Of a DNA stretch of 64,000 nucleotides, positions 731 to 62,908 are shown piece by piece. Both the position numbers and the translations under genes were made by a program. Location: contig JAGVWX010000019.1 of the NCBI GenBank assembly GCA_018304105.1, forward strand, positions 65,411-129,410. The letters run 5' to 3'. Source of the DNA: Candidatus Pacearchaeota archaeon (GTDB lineage: Archaea > Nanobdellota > Nanobdellia > Pacearchaeales > GW2011-AR1). Positions within the stretch are counted from its first letter, which is position 1; each line of letters starts with the position of its first letter. Under the pieces are notes generated by a model. It made no database searches. It was not told the origin of the DNA and saw nothing but the letters and a program-made list of their open reading frames with translations.

Positions 731-776
731 GAATTAACGAGGACTTTTGGATTTTAAATCCTTTCTACATGATTGA

Positions 777-901
777 CTTTGTTGAAAATTTGTTTGTGAA
801 TTGTTTGCTACTCGTCCACCCCGCCGCCAAAAAGTTATCATCCAACCCCACCGACCGACTTGTGAATGGGACTAAGGTCGTTTATTTGACTTTTTCAACT
901 G
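777..901 (+). repeat. GC-core modular intergenic element, copy a
   Basis: Left arm ctttgttgaaaa (777-788), core ccaccccgcc (816-825), ccgaccgacttgtgaa, tttatttgactttttcaac (to 901); collinear with 40017-40236. Confidence 0.7.
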
Positions 902-1585
902 AACTCGATTATTTAATTTTCTTTTTTTCATTAGCCTGAACAGGACGTATAATATGAAAAGAAGGTATGCGATGCCGACCCAGACGAACAGGGCAAGGAG
1001 GAATGAATTTTCTTTTATGATGTCAGAGCCGAGGTAGGTCTGGGAAAAGACAAGAGGAGCGAGACCGAGGGTTGTGGCAATAACAAAACGGGAAAGCCGC
1101 ATTCTGCTTAAGCCGGCGAGGTAACTAATAAGGTCTGTTGACGTTAATGGATTAATTCTTAAGATGAATATTCCGAACGGGCCGTACTTTTCAGTTATGC
1201 GGCCAAACCGCTGACTGTTTTTTATTCCAATTTTCTTTTTTATGTAATTTTTGCCAATTGTTCTGGCAAGCATGAACGCAATAATCGCACCGACTATGTT
1301 TCCTGTAAGTATGACAACGCCTCCGAAAAATCCGCCGAGAACCAACCCCGCAGCGACGTAAAGTATCAATGGGGGAATTGGCGCGGCAATTACTTCAACC
1401 ACGACAAGAATGAAAAGCACGACCGCAGCCCAACTGCCGAGCGATTGGATGTCTTCAACTATCGAGCTAATATCGTTGGTAACAATATGATAAATTATGC
1501 CTTTGTTGATGTAAGAAAAGTATGACGCAATGGCTACCAATGCCACAGTCAGAATGAATAGTGTGAGAATTATTTTCTTTTTCAT
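872..1585 (-). CDS. TVP38/TMEM64 (DedA-superfamily) membrane protein
   Basis: 237 aa, multi-TM, VIAAPIPPLILYVAAGLVLGGFFGG and RINPLTSTDLISYLAGLSRM motifs typical of SNARE-associated/DedA family. Confidence 0.7.
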   Translation of the reverse strand: MKKKIILTLFILTVALVAIASYFSYINKGIIYHIVTNDISSIVEDIQSLGSWAAVVLFILVVVEVIAAPIPPLILYVAAGLVLGGFFGGVVILTGNIVGAIIAFMLARTIGKNYIKKKIGIKNSQRFGRITEKYGPFGIFILRINPLTSTDLISYLAGLSRMRLSRFVIATTLGLAPLVFSQTYLGSDIIKENSFLLALFVWVGIAYLLFILYVLFRLMKKRKLNNRVQLKKSNKRP

Positions 1586-1859
1586 CTGATGTTAACACAA
1601 GGAAGATTTATATTGTTTTGCAGTTAACTCTGTTTATGATTTTTCAAGATAGCTTCAATTTTTAGAGAATAAATATTATAATGAATTTATGATTGAGATG
1701 CAATGAAAAGTTTTAGCTGAGATTTAATTTTATAATTATCTTGATACTGAAAACTTCTGAGCTGTTCTTTATTATTTTTTATTTATAAATATTATAACAT
1801 CATCAGAACGTAGTCTTGTGGATTTCTATTTGTCTAAGAGAAAGACTATCGGTCTTAAG

Positions 1860-5776: not shown

Positions 5777-6301
5777 ATGAATATGAAAAAAGGGTTTTAC
5801 AGCGTTCTTGGAATTTTATTGGTTGTGGCTGGGGCAGTCTTGCTGTTGAATTCTTTTTCAGGCTTGACTGGGTTTGTTGTTCTTGAAGATGTTAATAAGA
5901 ATGTGAGTGGGGTTTTGGGGATTGTTTTGGTTTTGGGTGGAATTGGGGTTTTGATGGCCAGAGCGCACCATAACAGATTTTATAGCGAGATTGCAGCAAG
6001 GATTTATGATGGGCTTGGAACGAGAAATGCATATGGACATAAGACCGAGCAGATATCTGTAACGGAGTCGAGAATTGCAGCACATGGGCCATTTCGCAAG
6101 GGTGATGTTGAGAATGTAATCTCTAAAGAGATAGAATCTGGGAGACTGGTGCTTGATAAATCAAGACAGGCCGTTTCCATTTCTACTAATCCGGAAAGAA
6201 TTGAAGAAATAGTGGATAATTACGGCGGAATGATGAAAGACACGGTTGTGGACAGGCTTAAGGAGCTGGAAGAAAGACGTTTGCCTGCGGGCGTTAGATA
6301 A
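5777..6301 (+). CDS. Membrane-anchored hypothetical protein
   Basis: Two N-terminal TM helices then soluble domain; no recognisable motif. Confidence 0.5.
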   Translation: MNMKKGFYSVLGILLVVAGAVLLLNSFSGLTGFVVLEDVNKNVSGVLGIVLVLGGIGVLMARAHHNRFYSEIAARIYDGLGTRNAYGHKTEQISVTESRIAAHGPFRKGDVENVISKEIESGRLVLDKSRQAVSISTNPERIEEIVDNYGGMMKDTVVDRLKELEERRLPAGVR

Positions 6302-6388: not shown

Positions 6389-6423
6389 CTGACGAAGTCA
6401 TTCGCTACGCTCATGAGGCAGCC
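6389..6423 (+). repeat. Hairpin module ctgacgaagtcattcgctacgctcatgaggcagcc
   Basis: Same module type as 40087-40120 and 40121-40155 (GACGARGTCA-hairpin-TGAGGCAGC) with compensatory stem changes. Confidence 0.6.
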
Positions 6424-6521: not shown

Positions 6522-7511
6522 TTAAGCCCACTTGCCAACCATTTGGAGCACATCTACAACTCTGCAAGCATAGCCGTATTCATTGTCATACCAAGCGAGG
6601 ACTTTTATTAAATTGCCGTCGGCTTGTGTTGATAGCGAGTCGAACAATGCGGAATTGGGGTTCTTTATTACGTCGCTGGAGACGAGCTCTTCTTCGCTGT
6701 ATTCCAAGATTCCTTTGAGCTCTTTTTCGGATGCTTTTTTGAATGCTGCGTTTACTGAATTGACATCAAATGGTTTTTCTAATTCTGCGACTAGGTCTAC
6801 GAGGCTTCCGACCGGGACTGGGACACGGACTGCAAGGCCATTTACCTTGCCTTCAAGTTCAGGCATGACTGCTGAGACAGCTTCGGCTGCGCCTGTTGAG
6901 GTTGGAATTATATTCAATGCGCCAGCTCTGCCTCTGCGCCTCTTTTTGTGAGACTGATCATGAAGAACCTGGTCGTTTGTGTAAGCGTGGACTGTAGTCA
7001 TCAATGCGCGATTTATTTGGAAGTTGTCGTTTAAGACTTTTAGAACAGGAGTCAAGCAATTTGTTGTGCAGGACGCGACTGAGACTATTTTATGGGTTTT
7101 GTCAAGTTTCTTATGGTTTACGCCAGGAACAATTGTGATGTCCGGGTCTTTTGATGGCGCGGAGATTAAGACGTATTCGGCTCCTGCTTTTAAGTGTTTT
7201 GAAGCGTTTTCTCTGTCTGTGAATGCACCAGTGCTCTCAACAACGACATTCACTTTCAGGGCTTTCCAGTTTATTTTTTCTAATTCTCTTTCAGCAATGA
7301 CTTTTATTTTCTTGCCTGCGACTATTAAGAAATCTTTATCAATTTTTACATCTCTCTCGTATCTTCCGTAGACAGAGTCATGCTTTAGCAAGTAAGCTGC
7401 AGATTCAACACCGTGCGGGTCGTTTACGACTGTCACGTTTAATTTTCTGTCTAAACAAATCTTAAGAACAGCGATTCCAATTCTGCCGAAGCCGTTTATT
7501 GCGATATTCAT
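6522..7511 (-). CDS. gap: Glyceraldehyde-3-phosphate dehydrogenase, class I
   Basis: MNIAINGFGRIG start (ATG 7511; the track start 7556 lies inside a repeat element), active site SCTTNCLTP. Confidence 0.9.
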   Translation of the reverse strand: MNIAINGFGRIGIAVLKICLDRKLNVTVVNDPHGVESAAYLLKHDSVYGRYERDVKIDKDFLIVAGKKIKVIAERELEKINWKALKVNVVVESTGAFTDRENASKHLKAGAEYVLISAPSKDPDITIVPGVNHKKLDKTHKIVSVASCTTNCLTPVLKVLNDNFQINRALMTTVHAYTNDQVLHDQSHKKRRRGRAGALNIIPTSTGAAEAVSAVMPELEGKVNGLAVRVPVPVGSLVDLVAELEKPFDVNSVNAAFKKASEKELKGILEYSEEELVSSDVIKNPNSALFDSLSTQADGNLIKVLAWYDNEYGYACRVVDVLQMVGKWA

Positions 7512-7524
7512 TTTGCCCTTTTTG

Positions 7525-7960
7525 ATTTTTGAAAACTGTTTGCTACTCGCAGCCACGCTCGTGATTTGTCTGCCGGTTTACTCTCGCGTAACTGCTCGCC
7601 CACCCCCCACCCAGGTAGTCTTGATTTGCTGCTGCAAATTAAGTTAGTAATCGCAAACAATTTTATTTGTACATGTTTATATTCCAGAGAAGATTTAAAG
7701 GTTGCGGTTGTTACGATTTTATTGAAAATATTTTTTGGCAGGTTTAGGATTCCCACAAGGATTTCACTTTCAGTGAAAAACCCTACTCCGCAGCCACGCA
7801 TCTTAATAGTTTAATTACTGGTGATACGTAACTGCTCGCTCGCAGCCACGCTCGTAATTATTGACAAATTACTCTCGCGTAACACGCTCGCCCTTGCCAC
7901 CACTCCTACTTTCCCCCAAATCAAAATAGTAAACCTGCAATTAGACTTTTTCAACAAAAC
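7525..7960 (+). repeat. Expanded GC-core intergenic element with internal duplication
   Basis: ctcgcagccacgctcgt at 7546 and 7839; ttactctcgcgtaac..ctcgccc at 7578 and 7869; cccaccccccaccc core; ends ttagactttttcaacaaaa (7941-7958). Confidence 0.65.
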
Positions 7961-7966
7961 CAGTTG

Positions 7967-9547
7967 TTATTTCTTTGGTTTAGCAGAGTTCTTTTTCTTG
8001 ACTAACAAGAGAACTACTGCCACAACAACTACAATGATAACCAATATTATTATTCCCCAATTTATGCCTCCGCTACTTAAAGGAGATTGCTGAGGTTCGG
8101 GTTGTGTTTCTTCAGGCTGATCTGTTGCTTCGGGAGCAGTTTCTGCTGGAACGGCAGGTGATTGTTCATTAATTGATTTTAGAATCAATGTTGCTGCATT
8201 TCCAGATGTTGTTGACTGGACATAAACGCTTAAATCGTAGTATCCATCAGCATCAAGGTCGTATTTGCCGGTTTCACCTGCACTCAAAGAACCTTTCTGA
8301 GGAGTCGATAAGATTGTAATGGAAACTATGCCTGCGTTGATGCTGTTTATTGTCATGGAATGCCCGCCCTTGATTGGGAGATTGATTTTCCAGTTGCTCC
8401 TTGCTGTTATTTCATATCCTTCGGTAGAAGATAATCTAGTGGCTGCTGCGGTGTATGTTGGGAACCCACTACTCCCGCTTGAAGATTCGGTAGTAGCAGC
8501 AGCAGCGGCTGCTGCCGTGACTGTGAATGCTAGTTTGCTAGAGTTACCTACGTTGTTTGCGTAGTCTGTGCAGTTCACGCTCCAGTTATGCGAACCTACA
8601 GCTATGGATGAGTTGGATGCAGTATTGGTCGCTCCAGTTGAATCAACAACTGCGATAAAGTTTATTACTGAGTTATCGAGGATTAAACTACAGTTTTGGG
8701 CTCCCGTTCCGTCTGTGTCTGTAACATTGAATGAAAAGGTATATGTTGTTGCCGATGACGACACATTTGGTGAAATCAAGGCTACTGTAGGTGCAGTTGT
8801 ATCTACTCTGATTGTTATTGTACTGGCAGTGTTGTTATTGCCTCCTGTGTCGTTAACTGTAGCGTTAAAGTAGTAAACTCCTTGAGCCAATCCCGTGAAA
8901 TTAGCAAATAAAGATTTAGAGTTCGTAGCCAGGACTGAATTGGCGCTGTTGTTTATGAGTGCGCGTGATGAGTTGAAGAGAGATATATTAATCGTGTTTA
9001 TGACTCCGTTGTCTGTTACCGAGACGTTGATGGCAATGTTAGTTCTCGAGATATTTGCATTGCCCGTTTCACCTGGGGCCACATATTGCACTGTAGCTGG
9101 AGCGGTAGTGTCGTTTACAAGAATAGAAATATTGGATGAGAGTGATACTGTAGAGTTTGTAGTGGTTACAGTTATGTTGTAATATCCGGGAGTTGAAGCG
9201 GTTGCGTTAAACCAAAAGCTGTTTAGCGTTAAGTTCAAGACCAAGCTGGTAGTGTTTGCCCAACTTAATGTCTGTCCATTAATGGTTAAAGTTCCAAGTG
9301 CGTCAGTTCCGTTTGTTGATGCTGTTGCGGTAAAGCTAGAAGGCAAGGTAATATTTACTTGGGTAATATTTGCCGCTACCAAAGTATCAGAGTTATTTAT
9401 TGTTATATTATATAGCGTAGAAACATCTTCAACGACATTTTTTGAAGTTGGTGTCACGACGTGTGCAGCCAGAACGAAAAAAATTGATATTATGATAGTT
9501 AGCAATGAGAAAAGCAAATAGAAATTTGTTTTTGTTGAATTAACCAT
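7967..9547 (-). CDS. Cell-surface (S-layer-like) glycoprotein with C-terminal TM anchor
   Basis: Signal/TM at N-terminus, dozens of N-x-S/T sequons, Thr/Ser/Asn-rich, C-terminal TM + KKKNSAKPKK. Confidence 0.7.
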   Translation of the reverse strand: MVNSTKTNFYLLFSLLTIIISIFFVLAAHVVTPTSKNVVEDVSTLYNITINNSDTLVAANITQVNITLPSSFTATASTNGTDALGTLTINGQTLSWANTTSLVLNLTLNSFWFNATASTPGYYNITVTTTNSTVSLSSNISILVNDTTAPATVQYVAPGETGNANISRTNIAINVSVTDNGVINTINISLFNSSRALINNSANSVLATNSKSLFANFTGLAQGVYYFNATVNDTGGNNNTASTITIRVDTTAPTVALISPNVSSSATTYTFSFNVTDTDGTGAQNCSLILDNSVINFIAVVDSTGATNTASNSSIAVGSHNWSVNCTDYANNVGNSSKLAFTVTAAAAAAATTESSSGSSGFPTYTAAATRLSSTEGYEITARSNWKINLPIKGGHSMTINSINAGIVSITILSTPQKGSLSAGETGKYDLDADGYYDLSVYVQSTTSGNAATLILKSINEQSPAVPAETAPEATDQPEETQPEPQQSPLSSGGINWGIIILVIIVVVVAVVLLLVKKKNSAKPKK

Positions 9548-10947: not shown

Positions 10948-11141
10948 GATGAGTTCTGTTGAAGATATTTCTTGGAAGATTTATGATTTGTAGCACTCTA
11001 AAAAATTATTAAACCACCCCACCAAACCGGGAATTGTGAGTTATTAAGCAAGTATGCTGATAACGACTTATTAATTCATTTGACTTTTAATAAAACCAGC
11101 AGCATATAAAAATTATTAAAGGGCTTAATCTCTTCTTTTGA

Positions 11142-11950: not shown

Positions 11951-12106
11951 AAAGATTTTGCTTATGAGAAATATTTTGGGCCGGAGATTGTGCCTTGAAC
12001 GACGAAAAAATAGCTTAAGTTTTCTGGATTAATTATTATGACGGATTATGTGTGGTTGGATATTTGATATAGCCGAGCGAAGCGAGGCTGATGAGTGATT
12101 TACAAG

Positions 12107-14145: not shown

Positions 14146-14378
14146 TTTTTCCACCCTCTTTTTATTTCGGTGCGGATTCGTTTCCATTCAGTATCAGACA
14201 TATCCGACCAGGCACCGGCCAAATCAGTTATTTTTTGTTTTTTTTGATGATTTTTTTTAAATTCTTCAAGAGTTTCGTCGAATGAAACAACCTTGCCTTG
14301 TTTTTTCTGCATATCTGCCGCTATGCCAAGCAACCAACGATAATTTTCTTCACTGATTTTGATTGTTTTTGATGCCAT
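14124..14378 (-). CDS. VapB-like antitoxin
   Basis: 84 aa, immediately upstream of and overlapping the PIN gene. Confidence 0.55.
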   Translation of the reverse strand: MASKTIKISEENYRWLLGIAADMQKKQGKVVSFDETLEEFKKNHQKKQKITDLAGAWSDMSDTEWKRIRTEIKRGWKKWKAPSV

Positions 14379-14518
14379 TTCTACTTAGTCACCTAGTGAC
14401 TTTGTGTATATAAATTTTTGGGATTTATAATTTTGTCGGGAATTTTGCAGTTTTTAATAATTTCAAAATAGCAAACTAATAATTAGATTTTTTCAACAGA
14501 GCTCAGTTTTTGATGTTT

Positions 14519-16677: not shown

Positions 16678-16846
16678 TGGGAAAGGAAAATAAAAATTCG
16701 GAAAAAATAGCTGCAATAATAATCTTTTCAAATTATCATAATGGCTTTCTTGAGCCGAACTGTTATTATTGTGCTGGGTGGGGTGGGGTGAAAATGTTTT
16801 GGAATTTAACCGAAGGTAATTTACAAACTAAGGGGGCGAGTATCTA

Positions 16847-19671: not shown

Positions 19672-19798
19672 CTTTTATGAGAATAAGTTGGAGAATTATA
19701 TAAATTTGCGCTTTGGTCAATTCTAAAATAGCTTCAATTTTCAGAGATATTAATATCATAACGAATTGGATTTAATTTGAGATGGCCACAATAAGAAT

Positions 19799-26040: not shown

Positions 26041-26215
26041 TTTTTTACGATGCTGATTTAATTTGAAGAGCGTTAAAATAGCTTCAATTTTCAGAAGTAT
26101 TAATATTATAACGCATTAGGTTTAGCTTGAGGGATGAAAGCTGTGGGGCTGAGTTGTGTCTGGGGTATTTTTTGAATATGGAAATTGTTAAAAAGAGATT
26201 GAGATAAAAATTAAT

Positions 26216-38047: not shown

Positions 38048-38450
38048 ATGATCCCGCTGGCTTCGAATCAAAGATTCTCGCTCGTTCGTCTGCTTACACA
38101 TCCAAACGAGGGATCTGAAGCCTAAACTTTTTAGAAAAAAGTTTTGGCGCATCAAAAACTATAATTGGATTTGCTTCGCAAATCTTGGTTTCCGTAGGAA
38201 CAAACAGCAGGATTATAATATTTCGCTTTGCTCAATATTATTAATGATCCCGCTAAGCAAAATTGCTTAGCAATTTTCCATTCGTTCGTCTGCTAAAGCA
38301 TCCAAACGAGGGATTTGAAATACAAACCCCTTTAGAAAAGGTGTTTCTATGAGTTCCCCAAACTACAATAGTCCGACAGGCTTGTCGGAAGTTCACAAGT
38401 CGCTCAGCGACTTAGTTGGGATTCTACGAATCCCAATATGATCCCGCTGG
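38048..38450 (-). repeat. Three direct copies of tRNA-Ile 3' terminus (atgatcccgct[gg]) at 38048, 38244, 38438
   Basis: Spacing 196 and 194 bp. The two non-tRNA units share the core tcgttcgtctgct....catccaaacgagggatytgaa (38083-38119, 38281-38320). Region packed with perfect 7-9 bp hairpins. Confidence 0.8.
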
Positions 38451-39434: not shown

Positions 39435-39553
39435 TTTGTTAGGTAAAAATGCCGAGTTTATATATCTGGGAATTTTTGGACCGTAATCTAAATTGTATTT
39501 ATCTTTCAACAGAAATGAATTACCTAAAAGATTAAATATGATTTTCTCTTGAT

Positions 39554-40000
39554 GTGATGATGAATAAAAAAGGGATGAGCATGATTGTTGTAGGTGTTTT
39601 GGTATTTTTTCTGGCCGTTATTTTGGCGATGGTCATTTATTGGAATATGAAGCAGGCGGTTCTTTATTTGGCCCCAGAGCCGGATGTCGATTGCTACGGG
39701 CTGGATTTTAATGCAAGTATTGTTCGCGGGCCTGGAGTGGATTATTTTGAAGTTGCCAATTTAGGGAATTTGCAAATTGTGGGATTTTATATAAAGCGTT
39801 TTGGAGATGGGGAGTTGTATACTTATGAAGAGATTGCTAAAATAATAGGGTCTGGAAAAGAAGATAGAATTGTATTGGAAAAAGATTATGGGCCTGGAAA
39901 ATATCTAATTGTTCCGAGAGTCGAGGGAGAGGATTTAGATGGACAGACATATCTTAGACCGTGCAAGGAAATTTATGGCTTGGGGATAGACCTTGAATAG
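39554..40000 (+). CDS. Secreted protein with pilin-like N-terminus
   Basis: MMNKKGMSMIVVGVLVFFLAVILAMV. Confidence 0.45.
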   Translation: MMMNKKGMSMIVVGVLVFFLAVILAMVIYWNMKQAVLYLAPEPDVDCYGLDFNASIVRGPGVDYFEVANLGNLQIVGFYIKRFGDGELYTYEEIAKIIGSGKEDRIVLEKDYGPGKYLIVPRVEGEDLDGQTYLRPCKEIYGLGIDLE

Positions 40001-40016
40001 AATTGTGGAGTTAAAT

Positions 40017-40236
40017 TTTGTTGAAAATCTTTTCTGGCAGTTTGTTATTTGCCCGCCACCCCGCCAATAATTATCATACCACCACACTGACGAGGTCATT
40101 CACTTCGTTCATGAGGCAGCAAGAGACGAGGTCAATGCTTACGCATTGAGGCAGCCGACCGACTTGTGAACAGATTCTTTTTACAGATAAATATAATGTT
40201 TTGTTAAATCGTATTTATTTGACTTTTTCAACAGAG
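40017..40236 (+). repeat. GC-core modular intergenic element, copy b (with two inserted hairpin modules)
   Basis: tttgttgaaaa (40017) ... ccaccccgcc (40056) ... modules 40087-40120 and 40121-40155 ... ccgaccgacttgtgaa ... tttatttgactttttcaacagag (to 40236). Confidence 0.75.
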
Positions 40237-40282
40237 CCTGTGAGTTAGAAAAATTTATAAATCTCCTGAATTGAGAAGTACC

Positions 40283-40774
40283 ATGAAAAAGATTTTTTTG
40301 ATTGGAGCGGCCATTGTTGTGCTGTTAGCGGTAATCTCTTTTGGGGGTTACGCGGTTGGGCATTTCATTTCTAATGGAATTGATGAAACCGAGTATGACT
40401 CGTTAGTGCAGGAAAAGTCGGTCCTGGAAGGCAAGGTCACCGAGTTGACTACCTTAAGTTCTGATGTGAGCCAGCAGATGGTTTCTTTGAGGTCAGAGAA
40501 CAATAAATTGAAAAATCAGTTGCAGCAGCTGCAGGATGACATAGATAATTCTCAAGACGAATGCAACGATTTACAGAATGAGAAAGATGATTTTGAAACT
40601 GAAATAGAAGACCTTGAAACTGAAATAAGCGACCTGGAGCAAGAAATAGAAGATGCCAATGAAGATGAGGTTCAGGATTTGGAAGACGAACTTCAGGAAA
40701 AGCAGGATGATTTAGACCAGCTAAATGAAGATCTTGACGATAATGAAAATGAGTTGGACGATTTGAATTGCTAG
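40283..40774 (+). CDS. Membrane-anchored, extremely acidic coiled-coil protein
   Basis: MKKIFLIGAAIVV TM, then heptad-like DLETEIEDLETEISDLEQEIED repeats. Confidence 0.55.
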   Translation: MKKIFLIGAAIVVLLAVISFGGYAVGHFISNGIDETEYDSLVQEKSVLEGKVTELTTLSSDVSQQMVSLRSENNKLKNQLQQLQDDIDNSQDECNDLQNEKDDFETEIEDLETEISDLEQEIEDANEDEVQDLEDELQEKQDDLDQLNEDLDDNENELDDLNC

Positions 40775-40898: not shown

Positions 40899-41068
40899 CC
40901 ATAAGATTTAGAATGAATCATTATAGTCCATAGGAATCTGAATGAATCATTATAGTCCATAGGAATCTGAATGAATCATTATAGTCCATAGGAATCTGAA
41001 TGAATCATTTGAATGAATCATTATAGTCCATAGGAATCTGAATGAATCATCATAATCCATAAGATTCT
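40899..41068. repeat. Tandem array of 29-bp unit gaatgaatcattatagtccataggaatct
   Basis: Perfect units at 40911, 40940, 40969, 41011; 12-nt partial at 40998; degenerate units at 40899 and 41040-41068, the latter encoding the last codons and stop of the wHTH gene. Confidence 0.9.
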
Positions 41069-41319
41069 GAAAGAATTATAATCTTGTTGTATTCCTGGAG
41101 AAATTCTTCGCCTTTTTTTGTGATTATAAAATATTTTTTGCCGGCTTCCTCTTTTGATTCCATGAGTTTGTTGTTTATGAGTTCCTCTAGGTAAGGCTTG
41201 ATGCTGTTATTGGAAAGATTTGCTTTGTATATCAGATGAGTTATCTTCGCCTGCTTACCTTTCTTTAGAACTTCTAGGAGGTCTTTGATTACCTCTAACT
41301 TGGTTCTTTTCTTTGCCAT
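41050..41319 (-). CDS. Small winged-helix DNA-binding protein
   Basis: 89 aa; KITHLIYKANLSNNSIKPYLEELINNKLMES...KYFIITKKGEEFL. Confidence 0.6.
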   Translation of the reverse strand: MAKKRTKLEVIKDLLEVLKKGKQAKITHLIYKANLSNNSIKPYLEELINNKLMESKEEAGKKYFIITKKGEEFLQEYNKIIILSESYGL

Positions 41320-57935: not shown

Positions 57936-58006
57936 CTTTTGTTGAAATTGGACGCTTGGCGTCTTATTTGCTGAACTCGCTCCGCTCGTTGTTCCCCACC
58001 CGCCCC
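57936..58006 (+). repeat. GC-core element, left-half copy
   Basis: cttttgttgaaa, hairpin gacgc-ttg-gcgtc, cgctccgctcg, ccccacccgcccc; explains the spurious ORF 57812..58042. Confidence 0.6.
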
Positions 58007-58118
58007 TAAATTAATATAACGCGAGAATTTATTGTTTGTCATATTATCTTCCTCCGAGTGATTTGCTGAAAATAATTATTAGTGACTTCTGATTGTCTTG
58101 TTTTTATTTGGTATCTTT

Positions 58119-61844: not shown

Positions 61845-61984
61845 TTGAGAATTAATATTCTATTTTTCAGGGACGACTTGTGAATTTATTATTTGTTCAA
61901 CTTTTCAACAAAGCCGGACAAATAATTAACCTTATAAACTATAAGACATTGTTTTCGCTGTAAAAAGAGCCGGTGACTGATAGT

Positions 61985-62908
61985 ATGAGCCTGAGAAAAA
62001 AGAAGGGGATTGTATTTGTTCCGTTGCTAGCTGTGGGCTTTATTCTTTTTGTTTCTTTGGCTTCAGCGGGCAATGTTACGAGGTCTTTTAGTTCTTCAAG
62101 TGTTAGCGCTGGAACTCAAGTAAACGTAAGCTTGATTGTAGATATTGATGAAGGGAATCCTAATGAAAGTTATTATTACATTCAAGAAGAAGTTCCTGCC
62201 GGATGGACTATTTTGGATAACGCAAGCGCTTTAGAGGTAGATGGGCGGAATATTACGTGGGCTTATGGACCGAGCCCCGCCGATACGACTCTTGTTTATG
62301 TTGTTCAGGCGCCTTCATCTTCGGGGAGCTATTCTTTTTATGGAAGTTATGCGATAGGAAGCCCGATTGTTTTTTCAGTTTTGGGGGGGGACACCGTAAG
62401 CGTAGCTTCGAATGGCATTATTGATTCGGGGAATCCCGGCGGGGGTGGTGGCGGAGGGACTCCAAAATTTCAGTGCAATGATAAATTAGACAATGATAAA
62501 GATGGTTTGATAGATTATCCTAATGACCCACAATGCAATTCCACTGCAGATAACAGCGAATTTTCGTTTGAACAACCTGTTGGGCCGTCGGGGTGCGAAG
62601 AACAATGGACTTGCGCAGATTGGGGCGCATGCAATGAAGAGAATGTAAAAGTTAGAACTTGTACGGAAGAGAACGCATGCGGGACAGAAATATTTAAGCC
62701 ACAGACTGAAGGCCTTTGCGAGTCGCCGACTATGCTTCTTGTCGGGGGCGTAAGATTGGACATAATTTTTGCAGTAGTGGTTATAGTTTTGTCTCTTGCA
62801 ACAGCTATTATTGGCTTAACTTTCTGGATTAAAGGAAGAGATGCGCGAAATGAAATGCTTGAAAAGAGAAAAGCGCTGATGAATGCAGTTAGAGAAAATG
62901 TTGTTTAA
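61985..62908 (+). CDS. Surface protein with Gly7 run, CxDxxDNDxDG metal-binding-like motif, WxCxxWxxC module, C-terminal TM
   Basis: CNDKLDNDKDGLIDYPNDPQC; CEEQWTCADWGAC; TM IFAVVVIVLSLATAIIGL. Confidence 0.7.
   Translation: MSLRKKKGIVFVPLLAVGFILFVSLASAGNVTRSFSSSSVSAGTQVNVSLIVDIDEGNPNESYYYIQEEVPAGWTILDNASALEVDGRNITWAYGPSPADTTLVYVVQAPSSSGSYSFYGSYAIGSPIVFSVLGGDTVSVASNGIIDSGNPGGGGGGGTPKFQCNDKLDNDKDGLIDYPNDPQCNSTADNSEFSFEQPVGPSGCEEQWTCADWGACNEENVKVRTCTEENACGTEIFKPQTEGLCESPTMLLVGGVRLDIIFAVVVIVLSLATAIIGLTFWIKGRDARNEMLEKRKALMNAVRENVV

What the first reader, a model, noticed from the sequence alone, without database searches (positions are those of the whole stretch)
40017..40236. Modular, TIR-bounded GC-core intergenic element (MITE-like) with insertable hairpin modules
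40017-40236 and 777-901 are collinear, with this layout: cTTTGTTGAAAA, about 28 nt, CCACCCCGCC, ..ttatcat.., CCGACCGACTTGTGAA, variable segment, TTTATTTGACTTTTTCAAC(A/T)G. The termini are inverted (CTTTGTTGAAAA / TTTTCAACAGAG). Copy b carries two extra modules of the form GACGAGGTCA-hairpin-TGAGGCAGC (40087-40120 and 40121-40155, the latter a perfect TCAATGC-TTAC-GCATTGA). The same module type occurs alone at 6389-6423 with compensatory stem changes. Partial or degenerate copies lie at 7525-7960, 10995-11100, 16740-16800 and 57936-58006. These GC-rich islands in an AT-rich genome have no obvious coding role.
Basis: seen in the sequence. Interest (0 to 1): 0.65.

Follow-up and report, generated by a model that had tools for sequence, protein, structure and literature searches.

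The report
Mosaic promoter-side insert with hairpin modules
Two intergenic stretches of a tiny groundwater archaeon are lineage-specific insertions built from shared blocks: outward-facing promoter-type boxes at both ends, a C-rich core, and small multi-copy hairpin modules. Both landed right next to an existing promoter, so they resemble bacterial BOX, REP and Correia repeats more than a classic transposon-derived MITE.

Summary
777-901 and 40017-40236 share four collinear exact blocks (12, 10, 16, 19 nt), and copy b carries two extra 35-36-nt hairpin modules. A third module lies at 6391-6422.

Both copies are insertions. In relatives, the two genes flanking copy a are 3 nt apart, and the codons displaced by the insert survive beside it in the window. 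At copy b's site, relatives carry a tRNA-Pro gene.

It is not a unitary MITE:
- No convincing target duplication was found.
- The "TIR" is an 8-11-nt box, TTTCAACA(A/G)A. In this genome it sits about 20 nt upstream of TATA boxes (10 of 26 boxes against a 1% background, p = 3e-14).
- Copies a and b are each single-copy as wholes. Their sub-blocks recur in other combinations, which makes the family a mosaic.

The hairpin modules are an independent repeat at several-fold the single-copy depth. They occur singly or in tandem, show compensatory stem changes, and differ in number (1 versus 2) between two assemblies at one locus.

In both copies, homology with the relatives resumes at the upstream edge of a pre-existing BRE/TATA, which puts a box at about -50.

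The closest analogues are pneumococcal BOX, REP/BIME and Correia elements.

The parts
40017..40236 (+). Copy b: left box, C-rich core, two hairpin modules, CCGACCGACTTGTGAA block, AT-rich stretch, right box. The spacer is 100% identical in three other assemblies of the same strain.
40017..40028 (-). Left arm of b. It is a TTTTCAACAAA box read outward on the minus strand, 17 nt after the stop of the pilin-like gene. No gene and no TATA lie beyond it.
40056..40065 (+). C-block CCACCCCGCC, shared exactly with copy a.
40089..40120 (+). Hairpin module M1: GACGAGG, stem TCATTCAC/GTTCATGA with a conserved 2x2 internal mismatch, then GGCAGC.
40125..40155 (+). Hairpin module M2 with a perfect 7-bp stem, TCAATGC-TTAC-GCATTGA. 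Summed unitig depth over 40116-40159 is about 40-54x against 4-5x in flanking unique sequence. Assemblies break here.
40155..40170 (+). Block CCGACCGACTTGTGAA, shared exactly with copy a. Its core CGACTTGTGAA also occurs at 61874 (+) and 38392 (-).
40214..40236 (+). Right arm of b, TTTATTTGACTTTTTCAACAGAG. The box ends 20 nt upstream of TATA 40254-40261, and the ATG is at 40283.
40245..40285 (+). Pre-existing BRE/TATA promoter and start of the 163-aa gene. It is conserved in relative L193, which has no box upstream of it.
768..904 (+). Copy a as an inserted segment of about 137 nt. The arms lie at 777-789 and 881-899. It has no hairpin modules and is single-copy as a whole.
733..767 (-). Remnant of the original last codons of the VTT/DedA gene (RKDLKSKSPR*). 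It is now non-coding and still carries the TATA box (751-758) of the downstream MFS gene.
872..907 (-). New C-terminus of the VTT/DedA gene (RVQLKKSNKRP*), encoded by the right arm of copy a.
6391..6422 (+). Solitary M1-type module between the converging 3' ends of gene 5777-6301 and GAPDH. L180 holds the homologous locus with two copies.
7716..7958 (+). Copy c, a full-length member of the sister sub-family: left box, GGATTCCCACAAGGATTT, small hairpin H1, C-rich modules, AAAATAGTAAACC, right box.
7530..7615 (+). Unit B: an a-type left end (TGTTTGCTACTCG) split from CCCACCCC by a roughly 50-nt module. A homologous block lies upstream of GAPDH in relative L124.
57938..58010 (+). Partial copy: left box plus C-block (CCCCACCCGCCCC).
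14463..14502 (+). Solo right body plus right box, 83% identical to 7921-7956. A TATA-like box lies 22 nt beyond it.
61874..61911 (+). CGACTTGTGAA followed by the box TTTTCAACAAAG, upstream of TATA and gene 61985.
11014..11090 (+). Degenerate a/b-type copy upstream of gene 11142: CCACCCCACC, AATTGTGAG, ATTTGACTTTT.

Best explanation
Copies a and b belong to a lineage-specific family of small, non-coding, mosaic insertion repeats in a Pacearchaeota-type (DPANN) archaeon.

A unit consists of two outward-facing copies of a box, TTTCAACA(A/G)A, around a C-rich interior. The interior is assembled from a pool of short blocks: the C-block, TTATCAT, CCGACCGACTTGTGAA, left and right bodies, and others.

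Within that interior, 35-36-nt hairpin modules behave as a second, independent repeat. Each has a conserved GAC(G/A)AGG flank, a variable stem and a GGCA(G/C)C flank. They are dispersed at several-fold the single-copy depth, occur singly or in tandem, and probably expand and contract by slippage or unequal exchange.

Shown: copy a was inserted into the last codons of a gene, and copy b replaced the content of a spacer that holds tRNA-Pro in relatives. In both, homology with the relatives resumes directly upstream of a pre-existing BRE/TATA, leaving a box about 20 nt upstream of the TATA box.

Inferred: units spread either by a trans-acting recombinase or transposase that recognises the box ends, or by exchange between promoter regions. 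The box then acts as an upstream promoter element for the neighbouring gene. The hairpins act at the level of folded nucleic acid, for example as protection or termination signals at transcript 3' ends, or as recombinase sites.
For: Collinearity and non-randomness.

Insertion of copy a. Relatives L196 and L197 have the VTT and MFS genes 3 nt apart, with the MFS TATA inside the last VTT codons. The window keeps those codons as a remnant at 767-733 (38/52 and 37/52 identical), and about 137 nt between the flanks is new.

Copy b site. L193 and L194 carry tRNA-Pro(CGG) at the orthologous site. Only the downstream promoter aligns with the window (score 34 against a null maximum of 25), and L193 has no box there.

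GAPDH-upstream spacer. It is 455 nt in the window against 27 nt in orthologous L126.

Box geometry. 10 of 26 boxes have a TATA-like box at +19 to +22 against a 1% background, p = 3e-14.

Box enrichment. There are 9 strict boxes in 96.5 kb of this genome. Relatives have 0, 0, 1, 0 and 1 per locus set.

Five box-bounded C-rich copies share one polarity, and similarity stops at the arm edges.

Mosaic. Copy a is single-copy, but 775-814 recurs twice at genome depth joined to a different module. Sub-blocks also recur at 7537 and at L191 18745.

Modules. Contigs break at them, depth rises several-fold, and five or more distinct flanks are seen. Real copies lie in L148, L180 and L185. A clean 35-nt indel separates L148 (two modules) from L191 (one) at the same locus. 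Six compensatory stem changes occur with no broken pairs.
Against: - No target-site duplication beyond a possible 2-3 nt was found.
- No cognate transposase was identified.
- The a/b-type core has only two full copies, plus a third seen only as a loose end of an assembly.
- The inverted repeat is short, and at copy a's left end it lies about 10 nt inside the terminus.
- The box also occurs without an element at several promoters and sporadically in relatives. It could therefore be an ordinary factor-binding site.
- The 1-versus-2 module difference could be an assembler collapse.
- No transcript data exist, so every functional statement is inference.
Confidence: 0.55

Rival explanations
1. Classic MITE. 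A unitary non-autonomous transposon with terminal inverted repeats is mobilised by an insertion-sequence transposase of the same genome. The modules are secondary insertions.
For: The inserts are discrete, with empty sites in relatives. Inverted termini are present in all five full copies, and the arms pair in predicted folds. Copies b, c and d fold better than shuffles, z -3.2 to -5.2. An automated survey reports high MITE densities in some DPANN genomes (PMC11602168).
Against: There is no clear target duplication. The inverted repeat is only 8-11 nt and is identical to a promoter-associated box. Copies a and b are single-copy as wholes, and their interiors share only about 57 nt of exact blocks. 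Copy a does not fold better than shuffles. At copy a's left end the repeat is not terminal.
Confidence: 0.15
2. Not mobile at all. The boxes are binding sites of a lineage-specific transcription factor at about -50. The GC-rich interiors are spacer DNA that grew in place by duplication, slippage and gene conversion between promoter regions.
For: The box-to-TATA spacing is strict, and solo boxes occur at seven or more promoters with no element beside them. Isolated boxes occur in two relatives. Blocks are shuffled in a mosaic fashion. Upstream promoter motifs are known in archaea (PMC5817253, listed; I did not read the paper).
Against: Copy a interrupts a reading frame with sharp junctions, and the displaced codons survive beside it. 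That is an insertion event and not gradual growth. The box is absent from the orthologous promoters in L193, L196 and L197. The same composite is found between unrelated genes.
Confidence: 0.2
3. A family of small structured RNA genes. The left arm would be the promoter, the C-rich or G-rich body with hairpins the RNA, and the T-run in the right arm the terminator.
For: Hairpin stems show compensatory changes. A cUUCGg-type loop occurs in hairpin H1 of copies d and e, and GNRA-type loops (GUAA, GCAA) occur on the opposite strand of M2. The G-rich strand of copies b, c and d folds better than shuffles. T-runs follow the core.
Against: No Rfam family matches even at permissive thresholds. No TATA-like box is placed to start a transcript into the body. 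The loop types point to opposite strands in different modules. Copies a and b would be read through from neighbouring genes in opposite senses. Copy a shows no fold signal. There is no RNA evidence.
Confidence: 0.08

Closest known systems
BOX elements of Streptococcus pneumoniae and S. suis (boxA-boxB(n)-boxC; Croucher et al. 2011, PMC3049150)
   Same: Both are composite intergenic repeats with two different end modules around a variable number (0 to n) of a short tandem middle module that folds on its own. Module number differs between copies and strains. S. suis has sub-families with different end modules around the same middle module. Both lie near promoters, and no clear target duplication has been identified.
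   Different: No sequence relation is expected across domains of life, and none was tested. Here the end modules carry an archaeal promoter-upstream box at a fixed distance from TATA. The interior is C-rich and more heavily mosaic. The middle modules also occur alone, without the end modules (6391-6422, L148).
REP sequences and BIMEs (bacterial interspersed mosaic elements) of enterobacteria and pseudomonads (reviewed in Delihas 2011, PMC3184786)
   Same: Both have GC-rich imperfect palindromes of about 35 nt in extragenic DNA, often at 3' ends or between converging genes. They occur singly or in clusters combined with other short conserved motifs, which is a mosaic. Stems are conserved as structures.
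   Different: No REP-associated tyrosine transposase could be sought. Estimated copy number is in the tens, not hundreds. The modules here repeat head to tail, not in alternating orientation. The host is an archaeon.
Correia elements (CREE/NEMIS) of Neisseria (PMC3184786; Siddique et al. 2011, PMC3024310, cited there)
   Same: Both are inserts of about 100-160 bp bounded by inverted repeats whose ends carry promoter elements that can drive or alter expression of the adjacent gene. Both are often found on the 5' side of genes.
   Different: Correia elements have 26-bp inverted repeats, a TA target duplication and hundreds of near-identical copies. Here the repeat is 8-11 nt, no duplication is seen, and the copies are mosaic. 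Promoter activity of the box is inferred and not shown.
Prokaryotic MITEs found by automated surveys, including in DPANN genomes (PMC11602168)
   Same: Both are small non-coding inserts with inverted ends in intergenic DNA. That survey reports DPANN genomes among the archaea with the highest MITE densities.
   Different: Such surveys require inverted repeats plus target duplications and near-identical copies, and these units fail those criteria. I found no description of a box-bounded, promoter-adjacent, modular family.

Membership tests
MITE | Small (under about 600 bp), non-coding, no transposase | tested here: met
   Units are 121-243 nt with no open reading frame of their own.
MITE | Terminal inverted repeats | tested here: inconclusive
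   An imperfect YYTGTTGAAAA repeat of 8-11 nt is present at both ends of five copies. At copy a's left end it lies about 10 nt inside the terminus, and it is identical to a promoter-associated box.
MITE | Target-site duplication flanking the insert | tested here: not met
   No direct repeats flank any of the five copies. At the one junction that can be reconstructed, only CGA and AGA (2-3 nt) could be a duplication.
MITE | Many near-identical dispersed copies of the whole unit | tested here: not met
   Copies a and b are each single-copy in four to eight assemblies, even at 80% identity. Only sub-blocks and modules are multi-copy. A whole-genome census was not possible.
MITE | Empty sites in related genomes | tested here: met
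   VTT-MFS junction: 3 nt in L196 and L197 against 141 nt in the window. GAPDH upstream: 27 nt in L126 against 455 nt. Copy b site: holds tRNA-Pro in L193 and L194.
MITE | A parent insertion sequence with matching ends in the same genome | not testable with these tools
No transposase domain appears among the called genes of L191 and L192.
BOX-type composite repeat | Two distinct end modules around a variable number of a tandem middle module | tested here: met
   Copy a has 0 modules and copy b has 2. L148 has 2 where L191 has 1 at the same locus.
BOX-type composite repeat | Sequence homology to boxA, boxB or boxC | not tested
   No reference sequences were compared. Homology across domains is not expected, so the relation claimed is one of architecture only.
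REP/BIME | GC-rich imperfect palindrome of about 20-40 nt, extragenic, with stems conserved as structure | tested here: met
   Module stems are 7-8 bp. Six double changes occur with no broken pairs. All copies seen lie between genes.
REP/BIME | Associated REP-type tyrosine transposase (RAYT) | not testable with these tools
Known RNA family (Rfam) | Match to a curated covariance model | tested here: not met
   The window yields only three tRNAs at gathering score. Nothing credible appears at E <= 10 for 39950-40300 or at E <= 1 for 7500-7980.
tRNA gene or fragment | Cloverleaf, or similarity to the tRNA-Pro found at the orthologous site | tested here: not met
   ARAGORN finds no tRNA in copy b. 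Local alignment of copy b to the tRNA-bearing spacers of L193-L195 does not exceed shuffles except at the downstream promoter.

The most novel reading that the evidence does not exclude
The units integrate by targeting promoters. Both junctions that can be reconstructed lie at the upstream edge of a pre-existing BRE/TATA, and each leaves a box about 20 nt upstream of the TATA box. This would fit an integration machinery that reads the TBP/TFB-bound promoter or the box itself, comparable in logic to yeast Ty3 targeting TFIIIB. It would thereby distribute a portable upstream promoter element through the genome of a DPANN archaeon. The hairpin modules would be a second, REP-like parasite or a recombination site riding inside these units.
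Probability: 0.15. Interest if true: 0.8.

Novelty: new variant of a known kind. Interest (0 to 1): 0.55.

Why it matters
Small interspersed repeats that rewire promoters are well studied in a few bacteria (BOX, Correia, REP/BIME). In archaea they are barely described beyond classic MITEs, and I found no such description for DPANN lineages.

This locus gives a concrete and datable example. An insert of about 137 nt split a tightly coupled gene pair and rewrote the last 11 codons of one gene. It also placed a conserved box at a fixed distance from the other gene's pre-existing TATA box. At a second locus a similar insert sits where relatives have a tRNA gene.

If the box is a working upstream element, these repeats are a way for a minimal genome to spread regulatory sites. 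If the insertions are promoter-targeted, that would be a new integration specificity in archaea.

In practice, these modules break short-read assemblies of such genomes. Their number may also serve as a strain marker.

Tried and rejected
1. A scan of genome contigs with the 16-mer CCGACCGACTTGTGAA returned 118+ chance hits in unrelated GC-rich bacteria. The pattern was too short for 596 Gb, and the scan was wasted.
2. The first metagenome scan, with both 3' blocks, found nothing although the pattern works on the window. That collection lacks this locus.
3. A scan of viral contigs for the module found nothing.
4. Of 64 metagenome hits to the module pattern, only L148, L180 and L185 are real. 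The rest lie in GC-rich bacterial genes without hairpins.
5. Metatranscriptomes from the same studies have zero coverage of the organism over 8 kb, so they are uninformative.
6. Rfam and tRNA searches found nothing.
7. Three other assemblies of copy b are 100% identical, so they carry no polymorphism information.
8. Ideas examined by eye and dropped:
   - Hammerhead or K-turn/C-D box motifs in the modules: the core motifs are incomplete.
   - A short peptide encoded by the 36-nt period: stop codons lie just upstream and there is no start codon.
   - Archaeal origin-recognition boxes: the spacing is wrong and there are too many copies.
   - G-quadruplex or i-motif tracts as the selected feature: a canonical G4 is seen only in copy e and unit B.
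   - A bacterial DnaA-box reading of TTTCAACA from other notes of this scan: irrelevant in an archaeon.
9. The minus-strand fold of copy b, in which module flanks pair with the G-blocks (z = -2.8), is not general, because copy a shows no fold signal.

Full report
ORGANISM AND CONTEXT. The window is about 39% GC. It encodes archaeal markers: CDC48, RtcB, an HTH_45 winged-helix protein and a DeoC/LacD-type aldolase. Sources label the closest GAPDH homologues Pacearchaeota or Nanoarchaeota, and earlier scan notes call this genome a Pacearchaeota (DPANN) from groundwater. The same strain is present in at least 19 groundwater and soil DNA runs. I therefore built a sample of about 96.5 kb from this genome: the window, 8.9 kb beyond its right end (L192), L191 (21 kb) and L180. 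L148 and L191 are assigned to the same genome because their unique parts occur in the same four runs, at the same depth as the window and with no differences. That assignment is an inference.

THE OBSERVATION. It is correct. 777-901 (copy a) and 40017-40236 (copy b) share four collinear exact blocks of 12, 10, 16 and 19 nt. A pattern made of two of the blocks matches only these two sites and none of 100 shuffles. Copy b carries two extra units of 35-36 nt, and a third unit lies at 6391-6422. Between the blocks, a and b are poorly conserved.

THE ARMS ARE A PROMOTER-TYPE BOX. TTTCAACA(A/G)A lies 45-59 nt upstream of start codons and about 20 nt upstream of a TATA-like box. This holds at the genes starting at 730(-), 26515, 39557, 40283, 43034 and 15145(-), and more loosely at 61985. 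Over the 96.5-kb sample, 10 of 26 boxes have a TATA-like box at +19 to +22 against a 1% background (p = 3e-14), with offsets peaking at 19-21. The right arm of copy b is the box of gene 40283, and the left arm of copy a, read on the minus strand, is the box of gene 730->2. The other arm of each copy faces outward towards the 3' end of a neighbouring gene. The "terminal inverted repeat" is therefore two outward-facing boxes. Strict boxes number 9 in 96.5 kb of this genome, against 0, 0, 1, 0 and 1 in the loci of five relatives.

A FAMILY WITH TWO SUB-FAMILIES. Pairing outward-facing boxes and asking for a C-rich interior gives five units, all with the same internal polarity: a, b, c (window 7716-7958), d (L191 6111-6295, which is L148 3330-3515) and e (L191 14634-14761). 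In the alignment, similarity stops at the outer edges of the arms. Copies c, d and e share a left body (GGATTCCCACAAGGATTT), a small hairpin H1, a C-rich tract and a right body (AAAATAGTAAACC...ATTAGAC). Copies a and b share the C-block, TTATCAT and CCGACCGACTTGTGAA. The genes flanking the L148, L180 and L185 copies have no homologues in the window or in syntenic relatives, so the copies are dispersed. In copy e the left arm sits 19-20 nt upstream of the TATA box of a leftward GTPase gene.

MOSAIC, NOT UNITARY. One contig spans copy a in every assembly, so it is single-copy as a whole. Only 775-814 has two further copies at genome depth, and there it continues into a different module, CGACCACACTCGCGAATTAATT. 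The same join is seen at 7537-7549 and at L191 18745. Apart from its modules, copy b's body is at single-copy depth. A third a/b-type core is visible only as a loose end of assemblies: CCGCCACCAGAAAGTTATCACACTAACACT followed by a module.

THE HAIRPIN MODULES ARE A SEPARATE REPEAT. Short-read unitigs break at the modules. Summed depth over them rises from about 4-5x to 40-54x, and individual unitigs run 2-4x the unique depth. Five or more distinct flanks enter and leave them. A metagenome scan with the module pattern gave 64 hits, of which only L148 (three copies, two in tandem), L180 (two) and L185 are real. At one locus L148 has two tandem modules where L191, from another sample, has one. The flanks are identical and the indel is a clean 35 nt. 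This is either real variation or an assembler collapse. Stems covary: six positions change on both sides with no broken pair, and the M1 type keeps the same 2x2 internal mismatch in all three versions. Loop types do not settle the strand. H1 of copies d and e reads C-UUCG-G on the plus strand, while M2 reads GUAA or GCAA on the minus strand. Three of the four module loci with known context lie after gene 3' ends, and one lies between diverging genes.

THE UNITS ARE INSERTIONS.
(1) Copy a. In relatives L196 (70% identity) and L197 (62%) the VTT/DedA gene is followed by the MFS gene after 3 nt, and the MFS TATA box lies inside the last VTT codons (...RKDLKSEKRH*). In the window those codons survive as a non-coding remnant at 767-733 (RKDLKSKSPR*), directly followed by the MFS start (38/52 and 37/52 identical). 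The upstream flank aligns down to about 917-920. About 137 nt (768-904) is new, and VTT now ends in 11 codons read from the element's right arm. Only CGA and AGA at the two junctions could be a duplication.
(2) Copy b. The synteny tRNA-Ile / VKOR / tRNA-Gly / ATP-cone / pilin-like gene / X / 163-aa gene is conserved. X is tRNA-Pro(CGG) in L193 and L194 and a decayed remnant in L195 (the remnant was judged by eye), and it is copy b in the window. Only the promoter TAGAAAArTTTATAAAT...TTGAGAA aligns between L193 and the window, and L193 has no box upstream of it.
(3) GAPDH upstream. The window has 455 nt, holding unit B and copy c, where orthologous L126 has 27 nt. L124 has 244 nt containing a block homologous to unit B.
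In cases (1) and (2), homology with the relatives resumes at the upstream edge of the BRE/TATA, about 9-13 nt beyond the box.

STRUCTURE AND RNA. Copies b, c and d fold better than shuffles (z -3.2 to -5.2, best on the G-rich strand), copy e is marginal and copy a is not different from shuffles. No Rfam family matches. The only metatranscriptomes from these studies contain nothing from this organism.

INTERPRETATION. The best-supported reading is a lineage-specific family of mosaic, box-bounded insertion repeats that lie beside promoters, with an independent hairpin-module repeat nested in them. The insertions, the box geometry, the mosaicism and the structural selection on the hairpins are shown. 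The mobilising enzyme, the activity of the box and the role of the hairpins are inferred. Three rivals remain, each with specific evidence against it as listed: a classic MITE, in-place growth around a transcription-factor site, and a small-RNA gene.

COMPARISON WITH KNOWN SYSTEMS. The architecture matches BOX elements, which have end modules around a variable tandem middle module (PMC3049150). The modules resemble REP units within BIME mosaics, and promoter elements in the ends recall Correia elements (PMC3184786). An automated survey reports high MITE densities in some DPANN genomes (PMC11602168). I found no description of a promoter-adjacent, box-bounded, modular family in archaea.

Noticed in passing
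window 40001-40282; L193 2207-2282; L194 4488-4563: Relatives carry tRNA-Pro(CGG) between the pilin-like gene and the 163-aa gene, but the window has none there. Whether this genome has that tRNA elsewhere is unknown. In L193 the tRNA is preceded by a duplicate of its promoter and first bases, and followed by a duplicate of its last ~40 nt around a 21-nt insert.
   Followed up: partly
window 872-907 (-): The VTT/DedA-like protein ends in 11 residues (RVQLKKSNKRP*) translated from the right arm of copy a. These replace the ancestral C-terminus, which survives as a non-coding remnant at 733-767.
   Followed up: yes
window 40911-41076: There is a tandem array of about 5.7 copies of a 29-nt unit (GAATGAATCATTATAGTCCATAGGAATCT), the first 3.4 of them perfect. 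It lies between gene 40283-40774 and the 3' end of the HTH_45 gene and runs into that gene's last codons.
   Followed up: no
window 1649-1687, 19724-19781, 26074-26131 (partial at 12006, 40822, 44941; also L191 14772): A second, unrelated intergenic repeat family reads TAAAATAGCTTCAATTTTyAGAGAwAT..., with copies 86-88% alike. In L191 it directly follows a right-arm box, so it may be a promoter or TATA-region motif.
   Followed up: no
L124 9757-10000 vs window 7530-7615 and 7796-7894: A relative with 83% GAPDH identity has a homologous GC-rich block (GGGCGAGCGTGTTACGC...GCGTGACCGCGAGTAG) at the same place upstream of GAPDH. Three other relatives have only 27-58 nt there. The block is either a conserved leader or upstream element of GAPDH, or an older member of the repeat family.
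   Followed up: partly
L148 4461-4488, L148 5303-5372, L191 18833-18868, window 38366-38403: Another hairpin type with GACTTG.../...CAAGTC stems recurs next to the modules, and once encloses a module in its loop. The block CGACTTGTGAA of copies a and b looks like one half of such a stem.
   Followed up: no
window 14188-14371 (-): A likely unannotated small gene (MASKTIKISEENYRWLLGIAADMQKK...) has its own TATA box. It diverges from the solo right-arm box at 14463-14502.
   Followed up: no
window 777-901, 7716-7958, 40017-40236; L191 6111-6295, 14634-14761: All copies have their C-rich strand on the same strand of their contig (3 of 3 in the window, 2 of 2 in L191). That is opposite to the window's overall G-over-C skew. 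It could be chance or an orientation bias relative to replication.
   Followed up: no
window 39435-39556: Relatives have a 65-75-aa ORF between the ATP-cone gene and the pilin-like gene, with the latter starting 6-24 nt after the preceding ORF. The window lacks that ORF and has a 122-nt spacer with a solo box and TATA instead.
   Followed up: partly
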